Shown: one piece after another, positions 10,652 to 30,721 of the stretch | Layout: every line of letters begins with the position of its first letter | Numbering within the stretch: position 1 is the stretch's first letter | Origin: a virus | Taxonomy: Duplodnaviria > Heunggongvirae > Uroviricota > Caudoviricetes | DNA: 37,123 nt | Reading direction: 5' to 3' (one strand) | IMG/VR virus record: IMGVR_UViG_2713896795_000003 | Location: 1-37,123 of that record | Program-made: the position numbers and the translations under genes | The notes under the pieces: model-generated | Told to the model about the DNA's origin: nothing | The model's input: only the letters and a program-made list of their open reading frames with translations | Databases searched by the model: none

Positions 10652-11010
10652 ACGAATATCAGTTTGTGCTTCCATACCCGCCGTCGGTGAATACCTACTG
10701 GCGAAGACGGGGAAGTCAATACTACATCAGCGATAAAGGCCAGAAATACCGAAAAGACGTTCAGCAAATCATCCGCCAACTTAAGTTAGACATTTTCACC
10801 AAATCACGACTCCGCATCAAAGTCATCGCAGACGTTCCAGACTCCCGCCGCCGCGACCTCGACAACATCCTGAAAGGTTTACTCGACTCACTTATCCACG
10901 CCGGATTTGCGGAAGACGACGAGCAATTCGATGACATTCGCGTAATTCGTGGTGTGAAAGTACCGGGCGGACGGCTTGGAATAAAAATCACCGAACTGGA
11001 GAACGTATGA
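10648..11010 (+). CDS. rusA: RusA Holliday-junction resolvase
   Basis: 120 aa with RRRDLDN and GGRLGIKITE motifs typical of RusA; strong GGAGG SD. Confidence 0.8.
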   Translation: MNEYQFVLPYPPSVNTYWRRRGSQYYISDKGQKYRKDVQQIIRQLKLDIFTKSRLRIKVIADVPDSRRRDLDNILKGLLDSLIHAGFAEDDEQFDDIRVIRGVKVPGGRLGIKITELENV

Positions 11011-11195
11011 ACGCCACAATTCAAACGATACCAGAGCTTCTTATCCAGACACGAGGCAATCAGACCGAAGTGGCGAGGATGCTTTCCTGCGCAAGAGGAA
11101 CAGTGCTCAAGTACAACCGAGACAGCAAAGGCGAGCGTCACGTAATAGTTAACGGCGTCCTGATGGTCAAACAGGGCAAGAGGGGAAGACGATGA
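11007..11195 (+). CDS. ninH: NinH-like protein
   Basis: ...GNQTEVARMLSCARGTVLKY... resembles lambda NinH from memory. Confidence 0.65.
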   Translation: MNATIQTIPELLIQTRGNQTEVARMLSCARGTVLKYNRDSKGERHVIVNGVLMVKQGKRGRR

Positions 11196-11815
11196 GACTC
11201 GAAAGCGTAGCTAAATTTCATTCGCCAAAAAGCCCGATGATGAGTGACTCACCACGGGCTACGGCTTCTGACTCTCTTTCCGGTACTGATGTGATGGCTG
11301 CTATGGGGATGGCGCAATCACAAGCCGGATTCGGAATGGCTGCATTCTGCGGTAAGCATGAACTCAGCCAGAACGACAAACAAAAGGCTATCAACTATCT
11401 GATGCAATTTGCACACAAGGTATCGGGGAAATACCGTGGTGTGGCAAAGCTCGAAGGAAATACTAAGGCAAAGGTACTGCAAGTGCTCGCAACATTCGCT
11501 TATGCGGATTATTGCCGTAGTGCCGCGACGCCGGGCGCAAGATGCAGAGATTGTCACGGTACAGGCCGTGCGGTTGATATAGCAAAAACAGAGCAGTGGG
11601 GGAGAGTTGTTGAGAAAGAGTGCGGAAGATGCAAAGGCGTCGGCTATTCAAGGATGCCAGCAAGTGCCGCATATCGCGCTGTAACGATGCTAATCCCAAA
11701 CCTTACTCAACCCACCTGGTCACGCACTGTTAAGCCGCTGTATGACGCTCTGGTGGTGCAATGCCACAAAGAAGAGTCAATCGCAGACAACATTTTGAAT
11801 GCGGTCACACGTTAG
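11192..11815 (+). CDS. Q: Late-gene antiterminator Q (lambda type)
   Basis: 207 aa; MRLESVAKFHSPKSPMMSDSPRATASDSLSG... recognised as lambda Q from memory. Confidence 0.9.
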   Translation: MRLESVAKFHSPKSPMMSDSPRATASDSLSGTDVMAAMGMAQSQAGFGMAAFCGKHELSQNDKQKAINYLMQFAHKVSGKYRGVAKLEGNTKAKVLQVLATFAYADYCRSAATPGARCRDCHGTGRAVDIAKTEQWGRVVEKECGRCKGVGYSRMPASAAYRAVTMLIPNLTQPTWSRTVKPLYDALVVQCHKEESIADNILNAVTR

Positions 11816-11857
11816 CAGCATGATTGCCACGGATGGCAACATATTAACGGCATGATA

Positions 11858-11893
11858 TTGACTTTTTGAATAAAGTTGGGTAAATTTGACCAA
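11858..11893 (+). promoter_or_regulatory. Late promoter pR-prime with qut region
   Basis: -35 TTGACT (11858-11863), 17-nt spacer, -10 TAAATT (11881-11886); sits between Q and the lysis genes as in lambda. Confidence 0.65.
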
Positions 11894-11921
11894 ACGATGG
11901 ATAAATGCACTCGTTAAATAA

Positions 11922-11957
11922 AGCCCTGAGTTAATAGCTCGGGGCTTTTTGCGTTTT
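11922..11957 (+). terminator. Candidate tR-prime terminator
   Basis: Hairpin AGCCCTGAG-ttaatag-CTCGGGGCT (one G-U pair) followed by TTTTGCGTTTT, ~35-60 nt downstream of the pR-prime start. Confidence 0.5.
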
Positions 11958-12248
11958 AAGCACGGCCTTTCTGAAAGCACATCAAACCAAATACCAGACA
12001 GACAAAAATAATCACCTTATCCGCTGTGGCTACGGTGCGGTGTGCTTTGCATAAAAGAAAACCAGCTCAATGGCTGGCTTCGTGAAAGCGGGTGGCAAGA
12101 AGTTGCGCTAACAACCTCCTGCCGTTTTGCCCGTGCATATCGGTCACGAACAAATCTGATTACTAAACACAGTAGCCTGGATTTGTTCTATCAGTAATCG
12201 ACCTTATTCCTAATTAAATAGAGCAAATCCCCTTATTGGGGGTAAGAC

Positions 12249-12572
12249 ATGAAGATGCCAGAAAAACATGACCTGTTAGCCGCCATTCTCGCGGCAAAGG
12301 AACAAGGCATCGGGGCAATCCTTGCGTTTGCAATGGCGTACCTTCGCGGCAGATATAATGGCGGTGCGTTTACAAAAACAGTAATCGACGCAACGATGTG
12401 CGCCATTATCGCCTGGTTCATTCGTGACCTTCTCGACTTCGCCGGACTAAGTAGCAATCTCGCTTATATAACGAGCGTGTTCATCGGCTACATCGGTACT
12501 GACTCGATTGGTTCGCTTATCAAACGCTTCGCTGCTAAAAAAGCCGGAGTAGAAGATGGTGGAAATCAATAA
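12249..12572 (+). CDS. S: Holin/antiholin S (dual start MKM)
   Basis: [34 protein letters not shown]... matches lambda S from memory. Confidence 0.9.
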
Positions 12573-13032
12573 TCAACGTAAGGCGTTCCTCGATATGCTG
12601 GCGTGGTCAGAGGGAACTGATAACGGACGTCAGAAAACCAGAAATCATGGTTATGACGTCATTGTTGGTGGAGAGCTATTCACTGATTACTCCGATCACC
12701 CTCGCAAACTTGTCACGCTAAACCCAAAACTCAAATCAACAGCAGCCGGGCGCTATCAGCTTCTTTCCCGTTGGTGGGATGCCTATCGTAAGCAGCTTGG
12801 CTTGAAAGATTTCTCTCCGAAAAGCCAGGACGCAGTTGCACTGCAGCAGATTAAAGAGCGTGGCGCTTTACCTATGATTGATCGCGGTGATATCCGTCAG
12901 GCAATCGACCGTTGCAGCAATATCTGGGCTTCACTGCCGGGCGCTGGTTATGGTCAGTTCGAGCATAAGGCTGACAGCCTGATTGCAAAATTCAAAGAGG
13001 CTGGCGGAACGGTCAGAGAGATTGAGGTATGA
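12556..13032 (+). CDS. R: Endolysin R (lytic transglycosylase)
   Basis: [39 protein letters not shown]... matches lambda R from memory. Confidence 0.9.
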
Positions 13033-13496
13033 GCAGAGTAACCGCGATTATCTCCGCTCTGGTTATCTGCATCATCGTCTGCCTGTCATGGGCTGTTAAT
13101 CATTACCGTGATAACGCCATGACCTACAAAGAGCAGCTCGATAAAAAAGTCAGTGAGATGAAGCAGGCGACTGCCACCATTACTGACATGCAGCGGCGCC
13201 AGCGTACTGCTGATGCACTTGATGCTAAATACACGAAGGAGTTAGCTGATGCGAAAGCTGAAAATGATGCTCTTCGGCGCAAGCTTGATAATGGTGGCAG
13301 GGTGCTCGTCAAAGGAAAATGCCCTGTGCCATCCTCAGCCGAAACCTCCAGCACCTCCGGCATGGGCAATGATGCCACCGTCGAACTCTCTCCAGTTGCT
13401 GGACGAAACGTTCTCGGTATTCGGGACGGAATCATCAGCGACCAAACAGCACTGAGAACGCTTCAGGAATACATCAGGACGCAATGCCTTCGATGA
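13029..13496 (+). CDS. Rz: i-spanin Rz
   Basis: N-terminal [32 protein letters not shown] like lambda Rz; C-terminal half divergent. Confidence 0.8.
13249..13455 (+). CDS. Rz1: o-spanin Rz1 (lipoprotein) embedded in Rz in the +1 frame
   Basis: [22 protein letters not shown]... with lipobox VAGC and proline-rich stretch; AAGGAG SD 8 nt upstream. Confidence 0.7.
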
Positions 13497-13840: not shown

Positions 13841-14362
13841 ATGAATATCGTTCCACTAAATTACAAAGGCGAACCTATCCGCTTCAATACTGATGGCTGG
13901 ATTAATGCCACTGATATTGCAAAACGTTTCGGGAAGCGTCTGGATCACTGGTTGTCCAACGCTGAAACTCTCGAATACGTTAGAGCTCTGGATGAGGTTT
14001 ATTCAGGTGAACCATCGAAAATTCTACATACCCGTGATTCCGGGTATGTAAAAACAAGCAAGGCACGAAAGGACAGGGGTGGCGGAACATGGCTGCATCC
14101 AAAGTTATCAGTTGCCTTTGCAAGATGGTGCGATCCGAAATTCTCCGTATGGTGCGACCTGCACATTGATAGTCTGCTTCGCGGTGAACTGACTGAGCAG
14201 CAGAAATATGAGCAAGCATGTCGCATTCGCGATGACCGGAAATCAAAAGCCAGCAATGGGGCAAGAGAGATGGCTCGCTGGCGATGGGATAAGCCGGTTA
14301 TTGAAGCAAATGTCGAGTACTGGCGCGAGCAACTGCAGTTGACTCTCGATATTGCGTGCTGA
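13841..14362 (+). CDS. KilA-N domain protein
   Basis: N-terminal NYKGEPIRFNTDGWINATDIAKRFGKRLDHWL resembles KilA-N/antirepressor-type DNA-binding domain; position after the lysis cassette is typical. Confidence 0.5.
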   Translation: MNIVPLNYKGEPIRFNTDGWINATDIAKRFGKRLDHWLSNAETLEYVRALDEVYSGEPSKILHTRDSGYVKTSKARKDRGGGTWLHPKLSVAFARWCDPKFSVWCDLHIDSLLRGELTEQQKYEQACRIRDDRKSKASNGAREMARWRWDKPVIEANVEYWREQLQLTLDIAC

Positions 14363-30488: not shown

Positions 30489-30658
30489 TTTGCTTGGATG
30501 CAGTAGTCAAAGAGATTGTGCTTACCATTTTGAGACCAAATTTTGTTCATGGCGAATCATTTGGCGCGAACGAAAAATTGAGAAGAGAAAGAGTATTCAG
30601 TGGCAAGCGCACGTTTTCAGAAGTGATGCTTGATGCGGCAAAGAAATCAAAACAGTGA
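30485..30658 (+). CDS. Hypothetical small ORF (57 codons, GTG start)
   Basis: GTG overlaps arc stop (GTGTGA) with G-rich SD; no ATG alternative; may instead be non-coding spacer. Confidence 0.2.
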   Translation: MICLDAVVKEIVLTILRPNFVHGESFGANEKLRRERVFSGKRTFSEVMLDAAKKSKQ

Positions 30659-30721
30659 AGCCCCAACTGCGGGAACAGTCAGGGCTTCGGTATCGTAAAA
30701 CCACGCATAGGAATTAACGAC
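30645..30721 (-). ncRNA. sar: Candidate sar-like antisense RNA covering the ant translation initiation region
   Basis: Minus-strand promoter -35 TTGATA (plus 30751-30756), 17-nt spacer, -10 TATACT (plus 30728-30733); minus-strand hairpin GAAGCCC...GGGCTTC (30657-30688) followed by U-rich tract. Confidence 0.4.

What the first reader, a model, noticed from the sequence alone, without database searches (positions are those of the whole stretch)
11858..11957. pR-prime followed by a very short-range terminator
A lambda-like pR-prime (TTGACT-17-TAAATT) is followed within ~60 nt by a hairpin plus U-tract. The constitutive late leader RNA would therefore be only ~55-65 nt, shorter than the lambda 6S RNA as I remember it (~190 nt), and Q would have to read through this tR-prime to express the lysis and virion genes.
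Basis: partly seen in the sequence, partly recalled or inferred. Interest (0 to 1): 0.4.

Follow-up and report, generated by a model that had tools for sequence, protein, structure and literature searches.

The report
P22-type late promoter with short leader
This is the ordinary late-gene switch of a lambda-like phage (promoter, Q-loading site and a terminator about 60 bases downstream), in the same form already annotated in phage P22 and common among its relatives, so it is real but not new.

Summary
A lambda-identical pR' (TTGACT-17-TAAATT, 11858-11886) lies 43 bp after a Q gene that is 206/207 identical to lambda Q. It is followed by the sigma-dependent pause element AACGAT (11893-11898). 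A strong hairpin (11920-11948, -19 kcal/mol, z = -4.2) with a U-tract follows, predicting a ~58-65 nt leader. The 111-bp module is 95.5% identical to P22, whose GenBank records annotate the same P late/PR', qut, +1 and 't late or tR'; antiterminated by gene 23 protein'. It also occurs in HK022, HK97, HK544, the mEp phages, Sf101 and Emek. At least 80% of it is found in 333 of 5,426 complete E. coli genomes. Compared with lambda, the leader is identical in register to +26 and then lacks about 135 nt of the 6S RNA body. Among 80 distinct regions downstream of lambda-family Q genes (Q identity down to ~40%), 59 of 75 with a detected terminator predict leaders of 57-79 nt. The short form is therefore the usual one and lambda's 194 nt is a longer variant. 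Verdict: already known, low interest. The only open question is whether the ~60-nt RNA also acts in trans, as StxS does.

The parts
11192..11815 (+). Q antiterminator gene (lambda type, 207 aa)
   Evidence: ORF. 206/207 identical to lambda Q and 202/207 to P22 gp23.
11858..11886 (+). Late promoter pR' (P late): -35 TTGACT 11858-11863, 17-bp spacer, -10 TAAATT 11881-11886
   Evidence: Hexamers and spacing are identical to lambda pR'. The homologous bases are annotated as promoter in HK544 and P22.
11864..11906 (+). qut region: the Q-binding element between -35 and -10, plus the start-site-proximal pause region
   Evidence: Coordinates transferred from the HK544 'Qut' feature and the P22 'qut' feature. 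The spacer differs from lambda at 2 bases and is identical to P22.
11893..11898 (+). Predicted +1 (A11893) and sigma-dependent pause element, the -10-like AACGAT at +1 to +6
   Evidence: Identical to lambda. The P22 records place the late RNA 5' nucleotide 7 nt after the -10. The A-A-n-n-n-T positions are invariant in distant relatives.
11920..11948 (+). tR' hairpin: 13 pairs, 6 G-C, 2 G-U, loop AAT
   Evidence: -19.1 kcal/mol, z = -4.2. The homologous bases are annotated 't late or tR'' in P22 and 'rho-independent terminator' in Emek. The stem is weaker on the minus strand (-13.5 kcal/mol) because the G-U pairs become A-C mismatches.
11946..11957 (+). U-tract of tR' (TTTTTGCGTTTT)
11893..11955 (+). 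Predicted constitutive late leader RNA, about 58-65 nt (3' end inferred, not mapped)
   Evidence: Inference from +1 and the hairpin position.
12249..12572 (+). Holin S, the first late gene that needs read-through
   Evidence: ORF. The upstream region and start are identical to lambda S.
12556..13496 (+). Endolysin R (12556-13032) and spanin Rz (13029-13496), with Rz1 embedded at 13249-13455
   Evidence: ORFs. Functional assignment is by homology to the lambda lysis cassette (established knowledge).

Best explanation
The region is the Q-dependent late-gene regulatory cassette of a lambdoid, P22-like phage, in its P22/HK022/HK97 form.

Proposed mechanism, with each step marked as shown or inferred:
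1. Host sigma-70 RNA polymerase starts constitutively at pR', with +1 at about 11893 (inferred by homology).
2. It pauses at about +16/+17 because sigma region 2 rebinds the -10-like AACGAT at +1 to +6 (inferred by homology).
3. Without Q, it terminates at the intrinsic terminator tR' (hairpin 11920-11948 plus U-tract). This releases a leader RNA of about 60 nt and keeps the lysis and virion genes silent (inferred).
4. When Q has accumulated, it binds the QBE between -35 and -10 and loads onto the paused complex with NusA. It prevents terminator hairpin formation, so polymerase reads through tR' into S, R, Rz and the morphogenetic genes (inferred from the lambda mechanism).

Shown here: the sequence elements, their identity to lambda and P22, the stability of the hairpin, and its conservation.
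Not shown here: the actual start site, the pause, the 3' end and Q read-through. These rest on lambda and P22 work; no transcripts were examined.

The leader is short simply because this lineage lacks the ~135-nt body of lambda 6S RNA between +26 and the terminator.
For: - Q is 206/207 identical to lambda Q.
- The promoter hexamers, spacer length, AACGAT and the first 26 transcribed bases align with lambda pR'.
- The -35 to -10 segment is identical to P22, and P22 gp23 and lambda Q are interchangeable (PMC8022706).
- P22 records BK000583 and AF527608 annotate promoter, qut, +1 and 't late or tR'; antiterminated by gene 23 protein' at the homologous bases, which are 95.5% identical over 111 nt. 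Emek annotates the terminator.
- Hairpin stability: -19.1 kcal/mol, z = -4.2. Whole leader: z = -4.6.
- The hairpin is strand-specific, -19.1 on the plus strand against -13.5 on the minus strand.
- Distant Q-lambda-family loci (Q 39-89% identical) keep the same order of promoter, AAnnnT, GCC...GGC hairpin and T5. Leaders of 57-79 nt are predicted in 59 of 75. Stem rungs 4-8 are paired in 98% of 40 distinct hairpins, through several pair types.
- The cassette layout matches the canonical description in PMC9388147.
- Short terminated late-promoter RNAs have been reported for P22, 21, phi80 and 82 (PMC7547250 citing Roberts et al. 1976).
Against: - No transcript data for this phage were examined.
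- The P22 +1 and terminator notes are themselves 'similar to lambda' inferences, and I could not read the 1976 P22 experiments.
- Among close relatives the hairpin shows no compensatory changes, because the sequences are too similar.
- The covariation seen in distant relatives comes from hairpins picked by a folding-based finder, which inflates the paired fraction.
- The U-tract is interrupted (U5 GCG U4), so termination efficiency is unknown.
Confidence: 0.9

Rival explanations
1. As well as being the by-product of antitermination control, the ~60-nt leader is a trans-acting, Hfq-binding regulatory RNA made in lysogens. This would parallel StxS of Shiga-toxin phages or the Hfq-bound lambda 6S RNA.
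For: - StxS derives from the terminated pR' leader and regulates rpoS and stx1 (PMC7547250).
- Lambda 6S RNA is present in lysogens, is recovered with Hfq and forms chimeras with host RNAs (bioRxiv 10.1101/2024.10.31.621285).
- The window's leader has the usual Hfq-module look: an A/U-rich single-stranded stretch (UAAAUAAA) directly before a terminator hairpin with a U-tail.
- The leader sequence is almost invariant across 19 variants.
Against: - The invariance of +1 to +27 is already explained by DNA-level constraints (pause element, Q loading).
- The rest of the RNA is just the terminator, leaving almost no free 'seed' sequence.
- No Rfam family matches.
- Across the wider family the sequence between the pause element and the hairpin is not conserved.
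- No target or binding data exist.
Confidence: 0.15
2. The hairpin at 11920-11948 is only a partial terminator. The effective block to late transcription lies further downstream, for example at the lambda-conserved hairpin at 12094-12127, so the dominant leader is longer than 60 nt.
For: - The U-tract is interrupted by GCG.
- A second hairpin followed by GUUUUG lies 140 nt downstream and is very stable in lambda (-28.4 kcal/mol, z = -4.5).
Against: - In the window that second hairpin carries two stem mismatches (-19.4 kcal/mol, z = -2.3) and has only four U.
- The first hairpin is the element conserved at this position throughout the family, and it is the one annotated as tR' in P22.
Confidence: 0.08
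3. The promoter-like and terminator-like matches are chance features of an A+T-rich intergenic region and have no function.
For: Generic pattern counts in the 3-kb region do not exceed shuffled expectation.
Against: - Base-for-base identity with lambda pR'.
- No shuffle folds as well as the real sequence.
- Conservation in hundreds of phages and prophages.
- The same architecture persists behind Q genes only about 40% identical.
Confidence: 0.01

Closest known systems
Phage P22 late control region (P late/PR', qut, t late/tR', read through by gp23)
   Same: - The module is 95.5% identical over the 111 nt.
- The -35, spacer (QBE) and -10 are identical.
- The +1 position is the same, the hairpin is the same apart from its loop, and the U-tract is the same.
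- The antiterminator is 98% identical.
- The predicted leader is about 60 nt in both.
   Different: - The hairpin loop differs (AAT against TTAACC), as do two bases just upstream of +1.
- About 25 nt after the terminator the sequence diverges from P22 and follows the HK544/HK022 type.
Phage lambda pR' - 6S RNA - tR'
   Same: - Same Q (206/207).
- Same promoter hexamers and spacing, same pause element, and the same first ~26 transcribed bases in register.
- Same 170 bp upstream of S.
- Same mechanism (PMC9388147).
   Different: - The lambda leader is 194 nt, processed to ~121 nt. It contains ~135 nt absent here, including the start of orf-64.
- The terminator hairpins are not clearly homologous.
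- Two QBE bases differ.
StxS small RNA of Shiga-toxin phages
   Same: A constitutive pR' transcript is terminated at tR' in lysogens, giving a short RNA as a by-product of Q control (PMC7547250).
   Different: - StxS is a 74-nt RNase E product of a 258-nt leader and has demonstrated Hfq binding and targets.
- Here the primary transcript itself would be ~60 nt, and no trans function is known.
- Sequence similarity was not tested, because no StxS sequence was at hand.
IsrK of the Salmonella Gifsy-1 prophage
   Same: A short RNA produced from an antitermination-controlled prophage promoter (PMC4825925, as summarised in PMC7547250).
   Different: IsrK acts in cis on translation of the longer read-through transcript and belongs to a different regulatory module. 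No relationship was tested here.

Membership tests
Q-lambda-type late antitermination cassette (Q gene, PR', QBE, SDPE, terminator, late genes; PMC9388147) | A Q-lambda-family antiterminator gene immediately upstream | tested here: met
   11192-11815 is 206/207 identical to lambda Q.
Q-lambda-type late antitermination cassette (Q gene, PR', QBE, SDPE, terminator, late genes; PMC9388147) | A sigma-70 promoter just downstream of Q, with the lambda pR' hexamers and spacing | tested here: met
   TTGACT-17-TAAATT at 11858-11886, 43 bp after the Q stop, aligned with lambda.
Q-lambda-type late antitermination cassette (Q gene, PR', QBE, SDPE, terminator, late genes; PMC9388147) | A Q-binding element between -35 and -10 that this Q can recognise | tested here: inconclusive
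   The spacer differs from lambda at 2 of 17 bases but is identical to P22. P22 gp23 is interchangeable with lambda Q (PMC8022706). Binding itself was not tested.
Q-lambda-type late antitermination cassette (Q gene, PR', QBE, SDPE, terminator, late genes; PMC9388147) | A sigma-dependent pause element (-10-like) in the initial transcribed region | tested here: met
   AACGAT at 11893-11898 is identical to lambda. AAnnnT is invariant in distant relatives. Pausing itself is not testable here.
Q-lambda-type late antitermination cassette (Q gene, PR', QBE, SDPE, terminator, late genes; PMC9388147) | An intrinsic terminator between the promoter and the late genes | tested here: met
   Hairpin at 11920-11948 with U-tract, -19.1 kcal/mol, z = -4.2. 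Conserved position in the family. Annotated as tR' in P22.
Q-lambda-type late antitermination cassette (Q gene, PR', QBE, SDPE, terminator, late genes; PMC9388147) | Lysis and virion genes downstream on the same strand | tested here: met
   S, R, Rz and Rz1 at 12249-13496 on the + strand. Portal, terminase and coat genes follow, as in P22-like phages.
Q-lambda-type late antitermination cassette (Q gene, PR', QBE, SDPE, terminator, late genes; PMC9388147) | Q-dependent read-through and Q-independent termination, shown experimentally | not testable with these tools
   Needs in vitro transcription or RNA mapping.
Lambda 6S RNA (the 194-nt leader) | Sequence homology along the whole RNA | tested here: not met
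   Only +1 to about +26 aligns. About 135 nt of the 6S body is absent. Leaders fall into two discrete types.
Any curated RNA family (Rfam 15) | A match reaching the family's gathering score | tested here: not met
   Only sub-threshold terminator-like hits (NsiR1 17.9 bits against 39; Thr leader).

The most novel reading that the evidence does not exclude
In lysogens of P22/HK022/HK97-type phages (carried by about 6% of complete E. coli genomes), the constitutive ~60-nt pR' leader would be an abundant Hfq-associated small RNA acting in trans on host or phage mRNAs. This would be a minimal counterpart of StxS and would give the 'by-product' RNA a function of its own.
Probability: 0.12. Interest if true: 0.45.

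Novelty: already known. Interest (0 to 1): 0.1.

Why it matters
It matters little as a discovery. The element is the textbook Q-dependent late switch in the form already annotated for P22, and it is present in many sequenced phages and prophages.

The comparative result has modest value for annotation. Among lambda-family Q cassettes a ~60-70-nt leader is the usual form, and lambda's 194-nt 6S RNA is one of several longer variants. Terminated late leaders are now being examined as regulatory RNAs (StxS, lambda 6S). This very common ~60-nt species would therefore be a cheap candidate to check in existing lysogen RNA-seq or Hfq data sets.

Tried and rejected
- **Rfam.** Permissive search of 11000-13000 and gathering-level search of the whole window: nothing for the leader, only sub-threshold terminator look-alikes.
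- **Covariation among close relatives.** 19 distinct short leaders showed no double changes. The sequences are about 94% identical per column, so the test says nothing either way.
- **5' hairpin (+1 to +23) predicted by folding.** The G4-C20 pair is broken in 2 of the 19 distinct leader variants, including Emek. I do not count it as a feature.
- **Q search in the species-representative genome set.** About half of the hits were 100%-identical Q matches in unrelated taxa (Pseudomonas, Shewanella, Bacillota MAGs and others), some on ~48.4-48.5-kb contigs. These look like lambda DNA contamination. Only five divergent loci were useful.
- **Profile search of viral contigs with alignment A4.** It returned only near-identical Q genes. 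Single divergent queries were needed to get diversity.
- **Primary literature.** The P22 genome paper and the phage 21 late-region paper are not held, so the size of the P22 leader measured in 1976 could not be checked.
- **19-codon hydrophobic ORF on the minus strand** (VIIFVCLVFGLMCFQKGRA, about 12015-11956). I considered it as a small toxin-like gene ending at a bidirectional tR'. I rejected it because my hand translation of the corresponding P22-type and other variant sequences listed showed the frame interrupted or changed to non-hydrophobic residues.
- **6-codon ORF in the leader** (ATGGATAAATGCACTCGTTAA, 11897-11917). It has no ribosome-binding site, and lambda has ATGGGTTAA at the same place. 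I treat it as chance.

Full report
**What is in the sequence.**
- The window encodes a 207-aa Q protein at 11192-11815. It is 206/207 identical to lambda Q and 202/207 identical to P22 gp23.
- Forty-three bases after its stop codon lie TTGACT (11858-11863), a 17-bp spacer and TAAATT (11881-11886).
- AACGAT follows at 11893-11898.
- A 13-pair hairpin, AAAGCCCTGAGTT-AAT-AGCTCGGGGCTTT, occupies 11920-11948, and its T-tract TTTTTGCGTTTT ends at 11957.
- The holin S starts at 12249 and is followed by R, Rz and Rz1.

**Is it more than chance?** The generic consensus scans are not significant on their own: 2 promoter-like sites against 3.3 expected, and 5 terminator-like sites against 3.1 expected. 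The specific evidence is strong:
- The 65-nt leader folds at -23.3 kcal/mol (z = -4.6, 0 of 200 shuffles as good).
- The hairpin alone folds at -19.1 kcal/mol (z = -4.2, 0 of 200).
- On the opposite strand the same bases give only -13.5 kcal/mol, because two G-U pairs become mismatches. This argues that the plus-strand RNA is what is selected.

**Comparison with lambda and P22.**
- Alignment A1 shows the window is colinear with lambda from the end of Q through -35, spacer (2 substitutions), -10 and AACGAT, up to about +26.
- Lambda then has about 135 extra bases, the body of 6S RNA, before its own tR'.
- The two sequences rejoin about 170 bp upstream of S.
- The P22 records BK000583 and AF527608 annotate, at bases 95.5% identical to window 11850-11960: 'P late or PR'', the qut site, the late RNA 5' nucleotide 7 nt after the -10, and 't late or tR'; antiterminated by gene 23 protein action'.
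- Transferring those features puts +1 at 11893 and tR' at 11920-11948.
- Phage Emek annotates the same hairpin as a rho-independent terminator, and HK544 annotates the promoter and Qut site.
- With termination 7-9 nt past the stem, the leader is about 58-65 nt.

**How common is it?**
- The 511-bp Q-S intergenic region occurs at 95% identity or more in 126 phage records. These include HK022, HK97, HK544, HK140, HK106, the mEp phages, Sf101, ECP1 and Emek.
- The 111-bp module is covered at 80% or more in 84 phage records and in 333 of 5,426 complete E. coli genomes. About 200 further genomes have only the promoter-proximal 66 nt.
It gave two discrete leader types that diverge after +26: 63 short and 55 lambda-like long.
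- The short leader is followed by several unrelated downstream sequences, some of them lambda-like. A mosaic joint therefore lies right after the terminator.

**Wider family.** Loci with Q proteins only 39-89% identical were retrieved from Yokenella, Pectobacterium, Kalamiella, Erwinia, Chimaeribacter and many IMG/VR contigs.
- They keep the same order of parts: promoter, an AAnnnT element at the start site, TCGTT, then a GCC...GGC hairpin with T5.
- A script applied to 80 distinct Q-downstream regions predicted leaders of 57-79 nt in 59 of the 75 where a terminator was found, and 110-231 nt in the other 16. Lambda itself was missed by the single-hairpin rule.
- In 40 distinct hairpins, stem rungs 4-8 are paired in 98% of cases through several pair types. 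Shuffled partners give 69% on average, and at most 78% in 2,000 shuffles.
- One caveat applies: the hairpins were chosen by folding, which inflates pairing.
- Among close relatives there is no covariation to count.
- The short leader is thus the usual state of the family, and lambda's 194-nt 6S RNA is one of the longer variants.

**Mechanism.** The parts match the canonical Q-dependent cassette: Q gene, PR', sigma-dependent pause element, terminator, late genes (PMC9388147).
- Polymerase starts constitutively, pauses at about +16/+17 on the -10-like AACGAT, and without Q terminates at tR'.
- Q bound at the QBE loads onto the paused complex with NusA. It forms a nozzle on the RNA-exit channel that prevents terminator hairpins from forming, so polymerase reads into S, R, Rz and the virion genes.
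- Because Q loads at the pause, the distance to the terminator is not critical. This fits the 57-231-nt range seen in the family.
- These steps are inferred from lambda and P22. Nothing here measures RNA.

**Literature context.**
- Short terminated RNAs from the late promoters of P22, 21, phi80 and 82 were reported decades ago (PMC7547250, citing Roberts et al. 1976).
- Lambda 6S RNA is 194 nt, is processed to ~121 nt, is present in lysogens and is recovered with Hfq (bioRxiv 10.1101/2024.10.31.621285).
- StxS is a 74-nt RNase E product of the 258-nt pR' leader of Stx phages and has trans targets.
- The only non-trivial possibility left open is that this ~60-nt leader also acts in trans. The A/U-rich stretch before a U-tailed terminator fits an Hfq module. 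However, almost the whole RNA is already accounted for by DNA-level constraints and the terminator, and the linker is not conserved in the wider family. I give this about 0.12.

**Verdict.** The feature is the already-annotated P22/HK022/HK97-type pR'-qut-tR' module. Novelty: already known. Interest: low.

Noticed in passing
window 11479-11492 (-) and 11255-11228 (-): Inside the Q gene, on the opposite strand, lies a perfect CII-type site, TTGCGAGCACTTGC. About 230 nt further along that strand is a hairpin with a T5 tail. These correspond to the paQ/a23 antisense promoter, the C1-binding site and the a23 terminator annotated in P22. This is a known feature.
   Followed up: partly
window 12081-12048 (-): A terminator-like hairpin on the minus strand (GAAGCCAGCC-ATTGAG-CTGGTTTT plus CTTTTAT; -14.8 kcal/mol, z = -2.9) lies between tR' and S. 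It would stop transcription running antisense from the lysis genes towards Q. It is present in HK544 and Emek but not in lambda. No minus-strand promoter was found to its right.
   Followed up: partly
window 12094-12127 (+): A hairpin followed by GUUUUG is conserved with lambda. In lambda it has a perfect 10-bp stem (-28.4 kcal/mol, z = -4.5). Here it carries two stem mismatches (-19.4 kcal/mol, z = -2.3). It may be a second, downstream terminator or a processing site of the late leader region.
   Followed up: partly
window 11946-12060; loci L279-L327: The tR' hairpin and the ~100 nt after it, including the palindrome CTTTCTGAAAG at 11967-11977, are found almost unchanged behind a different Q type. 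That type is 254 aa and about 50% identical, with a different promoter and QBE (TTTACAAAGTGGCGAT...TTTAAT). The terminator and its downstream segment therefore travel as a module separate from Q and pR'.
   Followed up: partly
window 30654-30720 (-): Rfam sar RNA (RF00262) matches at 76.6 bits against a gathering score of 43. This is the antisense regulator of ant in the P22 immI region, so the window carries a P22-type secondary immunity region. The window as a whole is a mosaic P22-like podovirus closest to Kapi1, CUS-3 and E212.
   Followed up: no
loci L006-L047 (genome-contig search): Q sequences 100% identical to the query turn up in assemblies of unrelated organisms (Pseudomonas, Shewanella, Oceanobacillus, Bradyrhizobium, Segatella and Collinsella MAGs and others). 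Some are on ~48.4-48.5-kb contigs, and nearly all carry the lambda-type long leader. This looks like lambda DNA contamination of public assemblies.
   Followed up: partly
window 13841-14362 (+): A 173-aa ORF sits between the lysis cassette and the packaging genes, at a typical 'moron' position. Its N-terminus looked to me like a KilA-N/Bro-N type DNA-binding domain, but I did not search it against any library.
   Followed up: no
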